A program made the translations under genes and the position numbers. Below the pieces are notes generated by a model. It had not been told where the DNA came from. It was given only the letters and a program-made list of their open reading frames with translations, and ran no database searches. This document shows, one piece after another, positions 13,100 to 31,243 of a DNA stretch of 50,438 bases. Within the stretch, counting starts at the first letter, position 1. Every line of letters begins with the position of its first letter. This stretch comes from a virus (taxonomy: Duplodnaviria; Caudoviricetes), in IMG/VR virus record IMGVR_UViG_3300024518_002307, positions 1 to 50,438 of that record; one strand, given 5' to 3'.

Positions 13100-13185
13100 T
13101 GGAGGAAGACAAAGGAGTCGAACCCTCAGCGGTTACGCTGGCCTAGTGTTCAAAACTAGTTGCTACCCTCGCAGCGCTATCTTCC
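13100..13185 (-). tRNA. tRNA-Ser(UGA), non-canonical (probable 8/4 fold)
   Basis: GGAAGATA/TGTCTTCC acceptor, CTAGT-TTTGAAC-ACTAG anticodon arm, long variable arm, TTCGACT T-loop, encoded CCA. Confidence 0.8.
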
Positions 13186-14095: not shown

Positions 14096-14181
14096 AAGTA
14101 CTTTGAACGGGAGTCGAACCCGCAACTCTACTCTCCCCGAAGGAAGGTTCTCCGTATACCTGTTCCGGCACCAAAGTACTT
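14096..14181 (-). ncRNA. tRNA-like RNA with the anticodon arm replaced by a UUCG hairpin
   Basis: Acceptor ACTTTGG/TCAAAGT, D-arm TGCCGGAACAGGTATACGG, T-arm GCGGG-TTCGACT-CCCGT, central CTTCC-TTCG-GGGAG; no CCA. Confidence 0.65.
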
Positions 14182-14182
14182 C

Positions 14183-14350
14183 CTAGTCAAACTCTATCTT
14201 GAACTCAATTATAGGAGCGTCTCCTTCGTTTGTCAAGCGAGCTTCGATTCCTTCCTTCAACTCAACTTCCGCTCCTTTACGGACATCCAGTTTGAAGTCA
14301 TTGCCGAAGGTTGCTAAACCTACAAATACTCCTATTATGATCCATTCCAT
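14183..14350 (-). CDS. Small membrane protein (55 aa)
   Basis: My translation: MEWIIIGVFVGLATFGNDFKLDV...; below the ORF-track cutoff. Confidence 0.5.
   Translation of the reverse strand: MEWIIIGVFVGLATFGNDFKLDVRKGAEVELKEGIEARLTNEGDAPIIEFKIEFD
14208..14236 (-). promoter_or_regulatory. Perfect sigma70 promoter
   Basis: TTGACA-17 nt-TATAAT, pointing at the tRNA-like RNA. Confidence 0.85.
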
Positions 14351-23377: not shown

Positions 23378-23601
23378 GTGTCCATTGGATAAAACTGCAT
23401 ACGATAGACAACAAACTCCCCTTTCCTTTTCATTAACTTATTTTGTTTGTTCATTACGTCGCGTGCTTTCCACGCGGCCTTTTGTGTTGCGTGTGTTTCG
23501 ACAGCACGAGCAAACAGATCATTGAATTTGATAGCGACGATATAATCATCGTTTGCATTGCAAGCATTCTCGTTTATATCAAGTGGCATGTTTATATTCA
23601 T
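23368..23601 (-). CDS. Hypothetical protein
   Basis: 77-aa ORF with an AAGGA RBS. Confidence 0.5.
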   Translation of the reverse strand: MNINMPLDINENACNANDDYIVAIKFNDLFARAVETHATQKAAWKARDVMNKQNKLMKRKGEFVVYRMQFYPMDTWK

Positions 23602-26338: not shown

Positions 26339-26341
26339 ATA

Positions 26342-26370
26342 TTGCAATCAGATAGAAGGCGTGCTAAAAT
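26342..26370 (+). promoter_or_regulatory. sigma70 promoter with extended -10
   Basis: TTGCAA-17 nt-TAAAAT, with TG ahead of the -10. Confidence 0.7.
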
Positions 26371-26474
26371 AGCTATTTGCTTCGCTTTCGCTACGCAAGC
26401 GAGCATCATAAAAATGCTCGCACTAGCTTTTTCGACGTGATTCACGGGAGTCTCTTTCTATAGGAGTAGAGATT

Positions 26475-26681
26475 ATGAGTACAATTTGTTATGTTATTTG
26501 CTGTAACGATAGCGTTGAGGCTTGTACTACAAACAAAAGTCTAGCCAAAAATTGGCTAGAGGTACTAGCCACAGAGCATTACTTAAGATACAAAGTGAAT
26601 TTTCCCCCTATGACCTACGAAGAATACAGAAAACGTTTGTACTGGCACATGCACGAGACTCCCTTTAAGGAAAAACTATGA
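26475..26681 (+). CDS. Hypothetical protein
   Basis: AGGAG RBS; 68 aa. Confidence 0.6.
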   Translation: MSTICYVICCNDSVEACTTNKSLAKNWLEVLATEHYLRYKVNFPPMTYEEYRKRLYWHMHETPFKEKL

Positions 26682-26872
26682 CAGAACTAAGAAATCCAAC
26701 AGTTGACGATCTGATAGAGGAACTAGCCTTAGACGAGTTCTCGTTGTGCCCCTACTGTGGTGCTAATCCTGAAGAAGAGGAGTATATGTGTACCCAAGAA
26801 TGCGATGTATTCTCTCTGCGTGATGAGAATACTCCTTTCCCTTTAAACTTTGATGAAGACATTTTCCTGTGA
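26678..26872 (+). CDS. Small acidic Zn-finger protein
   Basis: CPYC...CTQEC; ATGA overlap. Confidence 0.6.
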   Translation: MTELRNPTVDDLIEELALDEFSLCPYCGANPEEEEYMCTQECDVFSLRDENTPFPLNFDEDIFL

Positions 26873-27072
26873 GAAACCAAGGCATCGAAGAGATATTTGT
26901 AGATGTTACACAGGCGCGTATCTTTATTGCTCAAGCAAAAGCAACAGTGGTGTGGCAGGAGTACATAGATAACCTTTCCCGTAAAAGAGTAGGTACTGCT
27001 ACTTACTATCTGCACCATAAGCAGATACAAGAAGAGTTGAAGAGGATTGACAAGGCGTTGGTAAAGGTGTAA
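26869..27072 (+). CDS. Hypothetical protein
   Basis: GTGA overlap with the upstream gene. Confidence 0.5.
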   Translation: MRNQGIEEIFVDVTQARIFIAQAKATVVWQEYIDNLSRKRVGTATYYLHHKQIQEELKRIDKALVKV

Positions 27073-27075
27073 TCT
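27047..27075 (+). promoter_or_regulatory. sigma70 promoter
   Basis: TTGACA-17 nt-TAATCT; predicted +1 near 27082. Confidence 0.65.
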
Positions 27076-27081
27076 GTTTTT

Positions 27082-27172
27082 GGTGTTGTTTGGAACGGCA
27101 ACCGGACACTAGAAGTCACAGGGTCATGCCTACTTGGTGTCACTTCACGTTCGACTCGTGGGCAACACTCCA
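27082..27172 (+). ncRNA. tRNA-like RNA with an expanded anticodon arm
   Basis: GTGTTGT/GCAACAC acceptor plus T-CCA, TCACG-TTCGACT-CGTGG T-arm, D-loop GG, GACAC/GTGTC enclosing 27 nt. Confidence 0.7.
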
Positions 27173-27226
27173 CTTTTACTTAGGATTTTATCGTGACTCG
27201 AAAGAACATCATAAAAGTAGTTTTCC

Positions 27227-28078
27227 ATGAAACGTAACATCATCTCCGAGATCAAACTACTTGCACTCGATCTCGCCATTGCAGACTCCCTTCGGGGAGT
27301 CTGCCCTTTTTGTAACGCACGAGAACATTCCTTTACGATAACTCGCAACGAAGAGGGGTTGTTGTACAACTGCTACCGTGATAGCTGTCCCCCAGAAGAT
27401 TCTTCTGGATTCATAGGTACTATGCCTCAGAATGTTCTGGACGTATCTTCTTTCAAGAAGGAGAAAAAGTTTAGGGCTAAACCTTTCAAATACCCTACTA
27501 CCGGCCTTCCTTTAGATATGGAAGAGATACTTTACTCGTTGTACGGATTCATTCCAGTATGTAAATGGGATACGGGCCACTTCCGTCTGGTTTTCGAAGC
27601 ACGAAACTACGAAGGATATACTTACGGCTATGTAGCTAAAGCATTGTCAGGATACACCAGATGGAAGGGACCGAAGTCCGTTAACTACTTCGATACTCCC
27701 GGACCCCACTTGTATTACCCTCCTTTTTTTAAGTCTCCGACAGTACATCTAGGTCCTGGAGGATATCTAAATACTGAAAGTGTAACGATAGTAGAGGACT
27801 GTATCTCTGCTCAGAAAGTGAATGGAGTAGCGTTGCTTGGTACTCACATGACAGATGAGCAAGCGTTAAGCTTGCGTAAACATTTCAATCGCCTTATAAT
27901 AGCGCTTGATCCCGACGCAGCCGCTGCTGCTCAAAGAATATACCGAAAGTACAACCTGTATTTTGATAATATTAGAATACTGGATTTGGACAAAGACCCC
28001 AAGGACACATCCTACGAAGAATGGAACAAAAAATACTCTCAGCATCAATCGACTCCCGAGAAGCCTACGAAACTCTAG
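27227..28078 (+). CDS. DNA primase (Zn finger + TOPRIM)
   Basis: CPFC...CYRDSC, TIVEDCISA, ALLGT, ALDPDA, DPKD. Confidence 0.9.
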   Translation: MKRNIISEIKLLALDLAIADSLRGVCPFCNAREHSFTITRNEEGLLYNCYRDSCPPEDSSGFIGTMPQNVLDVSSFKKEKKFRAKPFKYPTTGLPLDMEEILYSLYGFIPVCKWDTGHFRLVFEARNYEGYTYGYVAKALSGYTRWKGPKSVNYFDTPGPHLYYPPFFKSPTVHLGPGGYLNTESVTIVEDCISAQKVNGVALLGTHMTDEQALSLRKHFNRLIIALDPDAAAAAQRIYRKYNLYFDNIRILDLDKDPKDTSYEEWNKKYSQHQSTPEKPTKL

Positions 28079-29178
28079 AACACTTCGCCATAGGCGAATA
28101 TCTAAGCGACGCAGGCGGCATAATCTGGGAAGAGATCTCCAAATACTACACACAAGATCAAGCCATACAAACTGCTGATACGGATATACTCAAGGACAGA
28201 CTTGAGAAGAACTATCCGAAACACTTCGAAGCACTCAAAACCTTTGTTTTCAAGGAAGCAGTTTCCCTCCCTAATCTAATCACGCAGATTGAAGATCTGC
28301 AGAGCGAGGTAATCCGCAACAAGATTGCCCTCGCCTGTCGTACCGACGATCCCCAACTAACTACACTCTTTGAAGAGTTTCACCAGATCAAGCAACGATC
28401 GCGCGAGAAGCGTACGCTGCGTGTTGATGATCTGAACGAGCTGTTGACAACCTCTGGCAAAAAGATTAAGGTACTGCCCTCTATTTTGAACAGACAGTTG
28501 GAAGGAGGTGTAAGCCGCAAGCACCATATCATGGTGTTCGGATTAGGAGAAATAGGTAAGTCTCTGTTTATATTGAACATGGCATACGGCTTTGTGAAAC
28601 AAGGATTGAAGGTGGGTTTCCTCGACAACGAGGATAACCCCGAGGATGTACTCAAGCGCTACGTAGTACGAGCAGCGGGTACAACCCTTCAAGATTTTAA
28701 GCTAGGACCAGAGCCTCACATAGAGAAGGCACTTGCATTAAAGGGAGAGTTCATCTTCAAAGAGATAACTCCCGGCACACCCCACGAGATAAGGAAGTGG
28801 GCTAAGGACAATAAGCCGGATGTGTTGATTGTGAACCAGATACGTAATCTAAGGATCACGGGGGTACAATCGCCTGAGCAACAACGAGAACGAGCATCTA
28901 TGTTCATGCGTACGTTAGGTAAGGAGTGTAACCTTGTACCTGTAAGCGTTACGCAAGCCTCTGCTACTGCCCAGGATAAAATGTACATAACTCAGAACGA
29001 TATGGACTATAGTAAAGTAGGATGTCCCGCCCAATCCGATCTTTTGATTGGCATTGGAGGTACAGTGGAGTATATTAATGGGGGTCAGAGGATGTGTAGC
29101 GTGATACGCAACAAGATTTCCGGCATCCACTTACCCTTCCGAACAACGTTCGATACACAAAGAGTTAAGGTTGAATAG
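28021..29178 (+). CDS. DnaB-like (SF4) replicative helicase
   Basis: Walker A GLGEIGKS, DNED, VLIVNQ, SVTQA, DLLIGIG, RNK. Confidence 0.9.
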   Translation: MEQKILSASIDSREAYETLEHFAIGEYLSDAGGIIWEEISKYYTQDQAIQTADTDILKDRLEKNYPKHFEALKTFVFKEAVSLPNLITQIEDLQSEVIRNKIALACRTDDPQLTTLFEEFHQIKQRSREKRTLRVDDLNELLTTSGKKIKVLPSILNRQLEGGVSRKHHIMVFGLGEIGKSLFILNMAYGFVKQGLKVGFLDNEDNPEDVLKRYVVRAAGTTLQDFKLGPEPHIEKALALKGEFIFKEITPGTPHEIRKWAKDNKPDVLIVNQIRNLRITGVQSPEQQRERASMFMRTLGKECNLVPVSVTQASATAQDKMYITQNDMDYSKVGCPAQSDLLIGIGGTVEYINGGQRMCSVIRNKISGIHLPFRTTFDTQRVKVE

Positions 29179-29296: not shown

Positions 29297-31243
29297 ATGA
29301 ACGGCAGGAAGAAAGACTCTACGAGAAGTTTGCCCAAATTCTTAACGAACTTAGATCCATCAATCTATCTCTCCGAGAACTATGTGATAGTAGATGTGGA
29401 GACAACGAGATTGGAAGGGATGTGGAAGAACCCCGACAATCGCCTTCTGAGCGTCCAGTTCTGTTTAGGTCCGGAGCATCCCCAGAGGAAGAGATTTGGG
29501 GACCGGAACGTCATCATAAAGGGAAATGAATATGAACAGTCTTATTTCATTGATAGCATCCTCAGTACTGCTGATTTCTTTGTGGCACATAACACTAAAT
29601 TTGAACTCGGATGGTTTACACGATGCGGTTGTGTTTTGGATCAAATTCTCTCTTATTGTACTATGCTTGGTGAATATATTATACTTGGCAATCGTAAACA
29701 GCCCATTAACCTTGATGATACTCTCCACAGGTATGGGTTAAATGGTAAGGAGAATCACGTTGCTAATATGCTCAAAGGGGGGATGTGTCTAAGTGAAATA
29801 CCTTTTGAATACTGGCAAGGCTACGCTGCGCAGGATGTGGGTCAGCTTCACAAGCTATTTCTTGAGCAGCGAAGGTACCTTGATGATAGCGGGCTATTGC
29901 CTGTGGCTTTTGTGCGTAATGTTTTTACTCCTTGTTTGGTCGATATCGAGCCGAATGGGATGACCCTTGACCCTGAACGGGTAGGGAAAGTAACAGCTAA
30001 GATATCGAACAGGCTGCGAGAACTTGAAACAGAGTTTTCCGCCATCACAGGAGGGGCGAATCCTAAGTCCGTTCCTCAGATGCGCAAGGTTATGTTCGAG
30101 GATCTCAAATTCAAGCCTGCGTACGATCCGTACAAGCGACCGATCCTTACACCCGCAGGCGTAGAGTTACGTAAGCAGCATGCAACGTTTGATGAGACAG
30201 AGTACTACGCAGTTAATGCTGACGTAGTAAGGGTGTTAGTCTGTCGGAATCAACGGCAACGTAGATTCAAAGAGATAAAGATGGAGATCGGAAAGCTTAA
30301 GGATAAGCGATCGAAGTACCTTAACAACATGCAGGCGTGTATTGACGGAAACGGAGGGACGCTTTATGCGTCCATTCACCAGACACGTACTAAGACTCAC
30401 CGTACTTCCAGTAAGGGAGAAAAGTACAAGCTGCAGTTTCAGAACCAAGACAACGAACTTAAGCCAGTGTACAAGGCAAAGTACGGACACTTTGTAGAAG
30501 TAGACTACTCTCAACTTGAGTTTAAGATGGCAGCAGTACTTACCCAGGACGAACCAACACTAGAATTAATACGGAGCGATTATGATATCCATCGATACAC
30601 TGCGTCAGAAATGTATTCAAAAGATGAAGGAGATATTACCGAAGAAGAAAGAAGGCACGCCAAACGACACACCTTCAAACCACTTTATTATGGTAGATCC
30701 GGAACCCCCGAACAGGTTGCTTATTACCTTGGTTTTAAGTCCAAGTACAGAGGAATCGCAGACACTCAAGATAGATGGTGTGGAGATGTCCTTCGATCAG
30801 CTAAAGATTCTCTCACGATTGCTAGCGGACTTAGGTTTTATTTCCCAGGAACGAGGTTAGGAGGGAATAGTAAGAGTCCGTTCGGACCTTACATAACGAA
30901 CGGTGCGAACATATATAACTTTCCGATACAAAGTATCTGTGGTGCAGATGTGGTGCCGATGGCACTTACGATCTTGTGGCACAAGATGAAGGCACGCGGG
31001 ATGAAATCCCGGATCATAAATACGATCCACGATTCTATCCTAAGCGAAGTTTCGGATGAAGAACTAGAGGAATATCAGACGCTTGTAAAGCAGTGTTTGA
31101 CAAAGCATGTCGTTGCTGCTATGCTCAAACTCTACAAGTTGGACATAAACATCCCACTTGTTGTAGACTTCAATATAGGAAGTCATTGGCACACTTCTAA
31201 AGATTGGGAAGACAAATGGCTTTCTACTACAGCGACGACGTAA
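29297..31243 (+). CDS. polA: Family A DNA polymerase with 3'-5' exonuclease
   Basis: Exo motifs DVETT, HNTKFE, YAAQD; motif A DYSQLE, motif B KRHTFKPLY (Phe at the 762-equivalent position), motif C HDS. Confidence 0.95.
   Translation: MNGRKKDSTRSLPKFLTNLDPSIYLSENYVIVDVETTRLEGMWKNPDNRLLSVQFCLGPEHPQRKRFGDRNVIIKGNEYEQSYFIDSILSTADFFVAHNTKFELGWFTRCGCVLDQILSYCTMLGEYIILGNRKQPINLDDTLHRYGLNGKENHVANMLKGGMCLSEIPFEYWQGYAAQDVGQLHKLFLEQRRYLDDSGLLPVAFVRNVFTPCLVDIEPNGMTLDPERVGKVTAKISNRLRELETEFSAITGGANPKSVPQMRKVMFEDLKFKPAYDPYKRPILTPAGVELRKQHATFDETEYYAVNADVVRVLVCRNQRQRRFKEIKMEIGKLKDKRSKYLNNMQACIDGNGGTLYASIHQTRTKTHRTSSKGEKYKLQFQNQDNELKPVYKAKYGHFVEVDYSQLEFKMAAVLTQDEPTLELIRSDYDIHRYTASEMYSKDEGDITEEERRHAKRHTFKPLYYGRSGTPEQVAYYLGFKSKYRGIADTQDRWCGDVLRSAKDSLTIASGLRFYFPGTRLGGNSKSPFGPYITNGANIYNFPIQSICGADVVPMALTILWHKMKARGMKSRIINTIHDSILSEVSDEELEEYQTLVKQCLTKHVVAAMLKLYKLDINIPLVVDFNIGSHWHTSKDWEDKWLSTTATT

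What the first reader, a model, noticed from the sequence alone, without database searches (positions are those of the whole stretch)
27047..27172. Promoter-driven tRNA-like RNA with a 27-nt structured insert in place of the anticodon loop, directly upstream of primase
Seen: 7-bp acceptor plus a possible G-1:U73 pair, encoded CCA, canonical T-arm, and a minimal D-arm with GG. GACAC/GTGTC closes 27 nt that can extend the helix (AAGT/ACTT, AGG/CCT, loop GTCATG). The predicted +1 of the promoter falls at about the first nucleotide, so no 5' processing would be needed. It is not tmRNA (no G3:U70, no tag ORF) and has no U33-type loop. Inference: a chargeable or CCA-bearing tRNA mimic, or a processing element for the primase-helicase-polymerase mRNA.
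Basis: partly seen in the sequence, partly recalled or inferred. Interest (0 to 1): 0.76.

Follow-up and report, generated by a model that had tools for sequence, protein, structure and literature searches.

The report
Orphan tRNA-like element before phage primase
A marine phage carries, between a likely promoter and its primase gene, a 90-base sequence built like the upper half of a tRNA that cannot read codons; it is real and tRNA-derived, but nothing yet shows whether it still works.

Summary
At 27083-27172 (+) there is a 7-bp acceptor stem, a canonical T arm, U73 and an encoded CCA. A descriptor of these features hit 0 of 300 shuffles. The D stem has only 2 bp, and a 5-bp stem closes a 27-nt loop with no usable anticodon loop.

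No standard detector accepts it. Default ARAGORN does not call it, and Rfam gives no family even at E<=10.

The promoter reading is supported. TTGACA-N16-18-TAnnnT occurs 6 times against 1.6 expected, always co-oriented with the genes. The 29-nt block is 27/29 identical in the nearest relative.

That relative (primase 79% identical) lacks the element. Its primase ATG follows the block after 9 nt. All 9 related loci pack primase against an upstream ORF. So the element sits in a lineage-specific 154-nt insertion.

The "structured insert" is no more stable than shuffles. No homologue was found in any collection searched, so there is no covariation evidence. No RNA data were available.

Best reading (0.45): a tRNA-derived, non-decoding tRNA-like RNA co-transcribed with primase and cut out by tRNA-processing enzymes. 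Main rival (0.33): a recently disabled tRNA pseudogene.

The parts
27047..27075 (+). Promoter-like block: -35 TTGACA (27047-27052), 17-nt spacer, -10 TAATCT (27070-27075). It overlaps the last 9 codons and the stop codon of ORF 26869-27072.
   Evidence: Sequence. 27/29 identical in L010, although the ORFs that carry it are otherwise unalike. One of 6 TTGACA-N16-18-TAnnnT sites against 1.6 expected; 0 of 100 shuffles reach 6; all 6 are co-oriented with local genes.
27082..27082 (+). G-1, the predicted transcription start (seventh base after the -10). It could pair with base 73.
   Evidence: Sequence; the start site is inferred from promoter geometry only. A variant contig has C at 27169, which would give G-1:C73.
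27083..27172 (+). tRNA-like element, 90 nt. Acceptor 27083-27089 / 27162-27168. U8 U9 27090-27091. D-like region 27092-27103. Stem 27105-27109 / 27137-27141 closing a 27-nt loop 27110-27136. Variable ACT 27142-27144. T arm 27145-27161. U73 27169. CCA 27170-27172.
   Evidence: Not called by default ARAGORN. No Rfam family at E<=10.
27173..27226 (+). 54-nt A+T-rich spacer up to the primase ATG. It holds AGGA (27182-27185), 7 nt before GTG 27193 of a 14-codon mini-ORF (27193-27237) that ends 8 nt inside primase.
   Evidence: Sequence and translation. Any role in primase translation is inference. Primase itself has no clear Shine-Dalgarno sequence.
27227..28078 (+). DNA primase gene (283 aa). Helicase (28021-29178) and DNA polymerase (29297-31243) follow.
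   Evidence: PHROG hits phrog_47, phrog_19, phrog_17.
27281..27313 (+). Terminator-like hairpin (10 bp, UUCG loop, then CCTTTTTGT) inside the primase 5' coding region. It is a possible attenuator of the same transcription unit.
   Evidence: The 60-nt window 27254-27313 is 95% identical to L010, against 77% for the whole gene, and is the highest of 27 windows.

Best explanation
A tRNA-derived gene for a non-decoding tRNA-like RNA was inserted, in this phage lineage only, between a conserved sigma-70-type promoter and the primase start codon.

Inferred mechanism:
1. Host RNA polymerase starts at about G27082 and transcribes the element together with primase-helicase-polymerase.
2. The first 90 nt fold co-transcriptionally into the acceptor/T-arm half of a tRNA, plus a 5-bp stem with a large loop.
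3. Host tRNA 3'-end processing then cuts behind the encoded CCA. For read-through transcripts from upstream, RNase P cuts at the 5' side.
4. This releases a stable CCA-ended RNA of about 90 nt and a primase mRNA that begins near 27173.
5. The released mRNA's own leader (AGGA, mini-ORF 27193-27237) takes over the job of the translational coupling that relatives use.

The RNA cannot read codons. Its most likely use is in cis, as a processing and 5'-protecting 'punctuation' module for the replication-gene mRNA.

Shown: the anatomy, the insertion, the promoter statistics, and the non-coding character of the region. Inferred: transcription start, folding, cleavage and any benefit.
For: - The tRNA half is intact: 17 of 17 pairs in the acceptor, T and anticodon-type stems, a consensus T loop, and an encoded CCA. 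This occurred in 0 of 300 shuffles.
- Only the D stem and the anticodon loop are non-canonical. That selective pattern also describes the tRNA-like domain of tmRNA (recalled).
- The promoter is credible: 6 sites against 1.6 expected, 6 of 6 co-oriented with genes. One of them (14208-14236) lies 31 nt before the phage's tRNA-Arg. The block is 27/29 conserved in L010.
- No strong terminator lies between the CCA and the primase ATG; there is only a 5-bp hairpin. Co-transcription is therefore expected.
- The region is non-coding by codon usage. ORF 27090-27230 scores below 99.8% of same-length in-frame windows of this phage's genes, while the neighbouring ORFs 26869 and 26678 score as coding.
- The element is present in at least two further strain variants in seawater contigs. 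The only change inside it is at base 73 (T>C), which keeps or improves a -1:73 pair.
- The phage's own tRNA-Ser shares the style: U7.G66, TTCGACT loop, U73, encoded CCA.
Against: - The nearest relative (L010, primase 79% identical) lacks the element, so it is dispensable for this kind of phage.
- All 9 related loci have primase abutting an upstream ORF.
- No homologue was found in the searches of IMG/VR, GenBank phages or 185,579 species genomes. None was found in the five relatives' records or the held loci. So there is no covariation evidence at all.
- Fold energies are not better than shuffles.
- The Rfam tRNA model gives nothing, whereas the phage's three real tRNAs score 29-35 bits.
- No RNA data were available.
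Confidence: 0.45

Rival explanations
1. Young tRNA pseudogene. A phage tRNA gene landed behind the promoter and was then disabled by an insertion of about 20 nt in the anticodon loop and by decay of the D stem. It is neutral baggage, perhaps still transcribed and trimmed, with no function.
For: - Absent from the nearest relative.
- A singleton in every collection searched.
- Fails the Rfam tRNA model and default ARAGORN.
- No canonical anticodon loop can be recovered by removing any single block. ARAGORN's best attempt gives the loop TTACTTG, with A34 and U37.
- The insert's pairing is at chance level.
Against: - Decay long enough to reduce the D stem to 2 bp should also have hit the other 17 pairs, the T loop or the CCA. 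All of these are intact.
- Compact phage genomes rarely keep 154 nt of useless DNA.
- The element persists in several strain variants. However, these are about 99% identical across it, so the time elapsed may be short.
Confidence: 0.33
2. Trans-acting tRNA mimic. The released CCA-ended RNA is used for its acceptor end. It could be aminoacylated, with a histidine-type G-1:N73 acceptor the most concrete guess. Or it could serve as a decoy or sponge for host factors that act on tRNA acceptor ends.
For: - G at -1 sits exactly at the predicted start, opposite base 73. Base 73 is U in the window and C in a variant contig.
- The acceptor/T minihelix and the GG / T-loop elbow elements are intact.
- That G-1:C73 is the main bacterial HisRS determinant is recalled knowledge, not tested here.
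Against: - No anticodon GUG.
- U73 rather than C73 in the window.
- No partner gene nearby suggests such a use.
- The single substitution carries no statistical weight.
- No homologues.
Confidence: 0.12
3. A small protein gene. The frame open from 27051 to 27230 (TTG 27090 or ATG 27126) ends in an ATGA overlap with the primase start, like the 43-aa ORF before primase in L004. On this reading the tRNA likeness is incidental.
For: - A 60-codon open frame ending in ATGA.
- Relatives couple primase to a preceding ORF.
Against: - Codon-usage score -0.05, below 99.8% of in-frame windows of real genes, with no frame standing out.
- Poor start context.
- No PHROG family at E<=1.
- Both variant substitutions would be non-synonymous (Leu>Pro, Phe>Ser) in this frame (read).
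- The tRNA descriptor hit 0 of 300 shuffles.
Confidence: 0.05
4. Pure chance resemblance in ordinary intergenic DNA.
For: - Fold energies are at chance level.
- No Rfam hit.
- Relaxed ARAGORN gives 0.075 hits per shuffled window.
Against: - Descriptor with CCA: 0 of 300 shuffles, with roughly 0.001 expected.
- Exact tRNA geometry: the T stem adjoins the acceptor, with one discriminator base and then CCA.
- Placement at +1 of a promoter, inside an insertion.
Confidence: 0.03

Closest known systems
Phage-encoded tRNAs and pseudo-tRNAs
   Same: Acceptor stem, T arm, discriminator base and encoded CCA. Same style as this phage's own tRNA-Ser. Promoter-driven, like the phage's tRNA-Arg.
   Different: 2-bp D stem. 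A 27-nt loop instead of a 7-nt anticodon loop. Fails RF00005 and default ARAGORN. Isolated in the replication module rather than in the tRNA cluster at 13.1-14.4 kb.
tRNA-like domain of tmRNA
   Same: Acceptor plus T arm plus CCA, a degenerate D region without a real stem, and a long helix in place of the anticodon arm.
   Different: G3:C70 instead of G3:U70. No tag reading frame and no pseudoknots. 90 nt. No ARAGORN or Rfam tmRNA call.
T4 small RNAs RNAC and RNAD
   Same: Small phage RNAs transcribed from the tRNA region, with unknown roles (PMC3014915, one passage read).
   Different: They lie within a tRNA cluster. I did not compare their sequence or structure here. That they are tRNA-like in fold is my recollection only.
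Bacillus cereus tRNA-Other (pseudo-tRNA)
   Same: A predicted pseudo-tRNA that does not function in translation, yet whose deletion has effects (PMC3399842, abstract in the search listing only).
   Different: Chromosomal and bacterial, next to a genomic island. No evidence here of any phenotype.
tRNA-mRNA co-transcripts such as the E. coli tufB operon (recalled)
   Same: A tRNA-type RNA at the 5' end of a protein-coding transcript, released by tRNA processing.
   Different: Those are working tRNAs. Here the RNA cannot decode, and co-transcription is inferred.
Candidate tRNA-like structured RNAs in IMG/VR (PMC10690425)
   Same: [quoted passage not shown]
   Different: Those were found by covariation across many copies. 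This element is a singleton, so such a screen could not have found it. Supplementary tables were not available to check.

Membership tests
tRNA (Rfam RF00005 / canonical cloverleaf) | 7-bp acceptor stem adjoining a 5-bp T stem with a TTCRA-type 7-nt loop | tested here: met
tRNA (Rfam RF00005 / canonical cloverleaf) | D stem of 3-4 bp | tested here: not met
   Only GG/CC, 2 bp, around the loop AACGGCAA.
tRNA (Rfam RF00005 / canonical cloverleaf) | 7-nt anticodon loop with U33 and a purine at position 37 | tested here: not met
   27-nt loop. ARAGORN's best spliced loop is TTACTTG, with U at position 37.
tRNA (Rfam RF00005 / canonical cloverleaf) | Covariance-model score at or above gathering (29 bits) | tested here: not met
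   No hit even at E<=10 on 351 nt and on 116 nt. Under the same relaxed settings RF00005 scores the phage's tRNA-Gln at 34.9 bits and tRNA-Arg at 29.2 bits. Its tRNA-Ser appears as a 34.3-bit hit to the related tRNA-Sec model RF01852.
Intron-containing tRNA (archaeal bulge-helix-bulge type) | Two 3-nt bulges on opposite strands, separated by a 4-bp helix, at the exon-intron borders | tested here: not met
   In the predicted fold, both bulges (2 nt and 3 nt) lie on the 5' side.
Intron-containing tRNA (bacterial/phage group I type) | A self-splicing intron of a few hundred nt with a group I core | tested here: not met
   The insert is 20-27 nt. No group I Rfam hit.
tmRNA | G3:U70 alanine identity pair | tested here: not met
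   G27085 pairs with C27166.
tmRNA | Tag reading frame and pseudoknots; detection by ARAGORN or Rfam tmRNA models | tested here: not met
   ARAGORN -m finds 0 genes even at a lowered threshold. No Rfam hit.
Bacterial histidine-type acceptor (recalled definition) | G-1 paired with C73 | tested here: inconclusive
   G27082 is present. Base 73 is U in the window and C in one 192-nt variant contig of run X7. Whether the RNA keeps G-1 cannot be told.
Bacterial histidine-type acceptor (recalled definition) | Aminoacylation by HisRS | not testable with these tools
   Needs a charging assay.
Sigma-70-type promoter | -35 and -10 hexamers with a 16-18 nt spacer | tested here: inconclusive
   -35 matches 6/6, spacer 17, -10 TAATCT matches 3/6 (keeping T1, A2, T6). 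Not listed by the consensus scan. The pattern class is enriched, 6 against 1.6, and is co-oriented with genes. The block is conserved in L010. No transcript data.

The most novel reading that the evidence does not exclude
The promoter starts the RNA exactly at G-1. This yields, without RNase P, a CCA-ended tRNA mimic with an 8-bp histidine-type acceptor (G-1:U/C73) and no anticodon. The phage would use it in trans. It could serve as an amino-acid acceptor or donor outside translation, or as a decoy for host defence enzymes that attack tRNA acceptor ends. At the same time, its excision would activate the primase mRNA.
Probability: 0.12. Interest if true: 0.8.

Novelty: new variant of a known kind. 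Interest (0 to 1): 0.42.

Why it matters
Phage tRNA genes are usually explained by codon supply. If this non-decoding tRNA-like RNA at the head of a replication operon is functional, it would be a DNA-phage case of tRNA mimicry. Such mimicry is known from tmRNA, bacterial Y RNAs and plant RNA viruses. It would also show that a tRNA fold can be reused as a processing signal or a decoy.

The locus also gives a clean natural comparison. The same promoter block and the same conserved hairpin in the primase 5' region occur with the element (this window) and without it (L010).

If it is only a young pseudogene, it is ordinary. In that case it still marks the kind of site that standard tRNA finders miss.

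Tried and rejected
- RNA evidence: no RNA holder was listed for 26600-27700. Only DNA contigs could be laid, so there is no evidence on expression.
- Run X6 has no contig over 26859-27228. Nothing follows from that gap.
- X5 record 8 carries a 36-nt look-alike of 27035-27070 (6 differences) with unlike flanks on both sides. It may be a chance or foreign match. I did not search with its loose end.
- attP / integration-site reading: no integrase among the 28 ORFs scanned against PHROGs (8 + 10 + 10). The element also holds both acceptor strands, not only a 3' half.
- Copy of a host or phage tRNA:
  - An acceptor + U8 + T-loop pattern found 0 matches in genome contigs.
  - A looser T-loop + 3' acceptor + CCA pattern found 8 matches in genome contigs, of which 0 are tRNA-like by relaxed ARAGORN.
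  - The looser pattern found 0 matches in viral contigs.
  - An exact 23-mer found 0 matches.
  - The promoter block found 0 matches in viral contigs.
  - blastn of the 105-nt region against GenBank phages gave only E=4 chance hits.
  - These patterns need exact matches, so diverged homologues would be missed.
- Covariance model R1, built from the single sequence, found only the element itself in the window plus 13 loci (156 kb). It found nothing in the five relatives' records.
- No internal repeat of the region in the window.
- Class II tRNA or '8/4' cloverleaf reading (PMC5389517, abstract and outline read): an 8-bp acceptor / 4-bp T stem is possible by eye (U8.G65). However, there is no long variable arm and no anticodon loop, so I rejected it.
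- Anti-start-codon pairing: the 3' half of the element can pair with the primase start region (duplex -15.9 kcal/mol, z -3.7, 0.35% of shuffles). I chose those segments after seeing the fold. Unbiased folds of 27082-27240 and 27145-27240 give z -0.40 and -1.01. I make no claim from this.
- Descriptor hit at 23445-23519 without CCA: no D or anticodon arm, and 0.08 such hits are expected per window. Treated as chance.
- Relatives cannot be drawn for a virus record.
- The 40-sequence primase alignment was too diverse for a locus scan, so a 9-sequence alignment was used instead.

Full report
**What is there**

The window is a complete 50,438-bp virus record. It is a marine tailed phage.
- Its DNA polymerase is at best 35% identical to those of Vibrio phages of the family Zobellviridae and VpV262.
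- Genes run on the minus strand up to about 25.3 kb and after 40.8 kb. They run on the plus strand from about 25.5 to 40.8 kb.
- The plus-strand block holds primase (27227-28078), a DnaB-type helicase, DNA polymerase, exonucleases and ribonucleotide reductase.
- ARAGORN finds three tRNA genes (Ser-UGA, Arg-UCG, Gln-UUG), all on the minus strand at 13.1-14.4 kb.

**The element**

- G27082 is followed by GTGTTGT (27083-27089), which pairs with GCAACAC (27162-27168). The seventh pair is U.G.
- TT follows at positions 8-9.
- The D-like region GG-AACGGCAA-CC can form only two pairs but keeps a GG.
- GACAC / GTGTC (27105-27109 / 27137-27141) closes 27 nt.
- A 3-nt variable stretch comes next.
- The T arm is TCACG-TTCGACT-CGTGG, adjoining the acceptor.
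- T27169 is the discriminator, and CCA lies at 27170-27172.

Detector results:
- Default ARAGORN does not call the element.
- With a lowered threshold and introns allowed, ARAGORN draws this cloverleaf. It labels it "tRNA-Ser(act)" with a 20-nt intron at a non-canonical place, leaving the loop TTACTTG with U at position 37.
- Rfam gives no family at gathering scores. It gives none at E<=10 on 351 nt or on 116 nt around the element.
- Under the same relaxed settings, the tRNA model RF00005 scores the phage's tRNA-Gln at 34.9 bits and its tRNA-Arg at 29.2 bits. The tRNA-Ser appears as a 34.3-bit hit to the related tRNA-Sec model RF01852.

**Is it more than chance?**

Thermodynamics says nothing either way.
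- The 90-mer has z = -0.46.
- The cloverleaf costs -24.3 kcal/mol against an MFE of -26.5.
- The helix extension inside the 27-nt insert is matched by 29% of 2000 shuffled inserts (z -0.47). The "structured insert" is therefore not supported as a feature.

Geometry does speak.
- I used a descriptor requiring a 7-bp acceptor, an adjoining 5-bp T stem, a TTCRANN loop and NCCA.
- In the window it found only this site and the tRNA-Ser.
- It found nothing in 300 shuffles of the window. Without the CCA requirement it gave 0.08 hits per shuffle.
- I wrote the descriptor after seeing the site, which inflates the figure somewhat.
- Relaxed ARAGORN gave 3 hits in 40 shuffles.

I conclude that the element descends from a tRNA gene.

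**The promoter**

- TTGACA (27047-27052), 17 nt, then TAATCT (27070-27075) puts the usual start, the seventh base after the -10, on G27082.
- The -10 matches only 3 of 6, so the consensus scan did not list it.
- The pattern TTGACA-N16-18-TAnnnT occurs 6 times in the window against 1.6 expected. None of 100 shuffles reaches 6.
- All six sites point the same way as the local genes.
- One site (14208-14236, a perfect TATAAT) lies 31 nt before the phage's tRNA-Arg.
- The block overlaps the last nine codons of ORF 26869-27072, which scores as coding.

**Relatives**

- No DNA match in GenBank phages.
- No close relative of primase or polymerase in IMG/VR.
- A protein search found one 79%-identical primase and many at 38% or less.
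- The 79% relative was fetched as a 2445-nt metagenome contig, L010.

In L010:
- The gene two upstream of primase is homologous to the window's.
- The gene immediately upstream is unlike the window's except for its last nine codons.
- Those codons are the same 29-nt block, 27/29 identical.
- The primase ATG follows the block after only 9 nt. L010 therefore has the promoter block but no tRNA-like element.

In the window, 154 nt separate the stop codon from the ATG.

In all 9 related loci (L002-L010), the ORF holding the primase match overlaps, or starts within 12 nt of, an upstream ORF. This uses longest ORFs. For L004 the upstream ORF is a 43-aa ORF. L002 and L003 look like the same phage. None of the 9 loci gave a relaxed ARAGORN hit or a descriptor hit.

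The element thus lies in an insertion specific to this lineage.

**Variants in seawater contigs**

- One 192-nt contig (run X7) covers 27072-27263 with two differences: T>C at 27169 (the discriminator, giving G-1:C73) and T>C at 27223. The same strain differs by 13 of 68 bases further into primase, so it is a mosaic.
- A second form in run X4 replaces 26971-27046 with 97 other letters. It has 4 differences in 27047-27095 and rejoins the same sequence.
- The element therefore exists in at least three strain backgrounds. It is almost unchanged in all, so nothing can be said about covariation.

**Homologue searches**

Every homologue search came back empty. Details are under Tried and rejected.

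**Coding rival**

- A frame is open from 27051 to 27230 and ends in an ATGA overlap with primase.
- Its codon-usage score (-0.05) is below 99.8% of in-frame windows of the phage's genes, and no frame stands out.
- The neighbouring small ORFs score 0.32-0.33, like real genes.
- No PHROG family matches.

**Downstream context**

- After the CCA there are 54 A+T-rich bases.
- These hold AGGA seven bases before a GTG, which opens a 14-codon mini-ORF ending 8 nt inside primase.
- Primase itself lacks a clear Shine-Dalgarno sequence.
- A 10-bp UUCG hairpin followed by a T run lies at 27281-27313, inside the primase coding region.
- The 60-nt window around it is 95% identical to L010 against 77% for the gene. 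This is the highest of 27 windows.
- The promoter block and this hairpin look like a conserved control unit. The element has been inserted into that unit.

**Interpretation**

- The intact 17 of 17 stem pairs, the consensus T loop and the retained CCA stand beside a collapsed D stem and a destroyed anticodon loop. This fits an RNA kept for its acceptor/T-arm half better than uniform decay.
- The strains are so alike that little time may have passed, and the nearest relative does without the element.
- I put 0.45 on an expressed, non-decoding tRNA-like module that host tRNA enzymes process out of the primase transcript.
- I put 0.33 on a young pseudogene, 0.12 on a trans-acting mimic, and the remainder on a small ORF or chance.
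- All steps after "the DNA looks like this" are inference. No RNA run was listed.

**Literature seen**

- PMC10690425 (passages) reports tRNA-like candidate RNAs in IMG/VR found by covariation.
- PMC3014915 (one passage) notes that the T4 RNAs RNAC and RNAD, from the tRNA region, have unknown roles.
- PMC3399842 (abstract in the listing) describes a non-translating pseudo-tRNA with a phenotype.
- PMC5389517 (abstract and outline) describes 8/4 and 9/3 cloverleaf tRNAs.
- My four searches showed no paper describing a tRNA-like element with a replaced anticodon loop upstream of a phage primase. Supplements were closed and could hold such cases.

Noticed in passing
window 27254-27313 (hairpin 27281-27304 plus T run): A perfect 10-bp hairpin with a UUCG loop, followed by CCTTTTTGT, lies inside the primase coding region (Cys-Pro-Phe-Cys zinc-finger codons). 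This 60-nt window is 95% identical to L010 against 77% for the gene, so synonymous sites are frozen. It may be a transcription attenuator, or another RNA or DNA signal shared by both phages.
   Followed up: partly
window 14098-14177 (-): The ARAGORN 'tRNA-Arg(tcg)' is 80 nt long. The Rfam tRNA model aligns it only by skipping a 23-nt anticodon arm (29.2 bits). That arm can also fold as a cUUCGg tetraloop hairpin. It may be a second tRNA with a non-standard anticodon arm. A consensus promoter (TTGACA-17-TATAAT, 14208-14236) lies 31 nt upstream.
   Followed up: partly
window 13100-13185 (-): The tRNA-Ser(tga) has U73 and an encoded CCA. It scores best against the Rfam tRNA-Sec model (34.3 bits, below the gathering score of 47) rather than the general tRNA model.
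   Followed up: no
window 14208, 19106 (-); 27047, 28444, 31097, 38337 (+): There are six TTGACA-N16-18-TAnnnT sites against 1.6 expected. All are co-oriented with the local genes, and five begin TTGACAA. The phage seems to rely on host sigma-70-type promoters.
   Followed up: partly
window 26956-26995 (+): Weak match to the Rfam DUF805b RNA motif (17.9 bits, gathering score 35.6, E 0.012 in a 351-nt search) inside ORF 26869-27072. Probably chance.
   Followed up: no
window 26339-26474 (+): A second non-coding gap in the small-ORF run. It holds a promoter-like site (TTGCAA-17-TAAAAT with TG, 26342-26370) and a terminator-like hairpin (26399-26421).
   Followed up: no
window 26869-27072 versus L010 248-538: The ORF just upstream of the promoter block has been swapped for an unrelated one between the two phages. 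Run X4 holds a third form. The 29-nt block marks the right-hand edge of the swapped cassette.
   Followed up: partly
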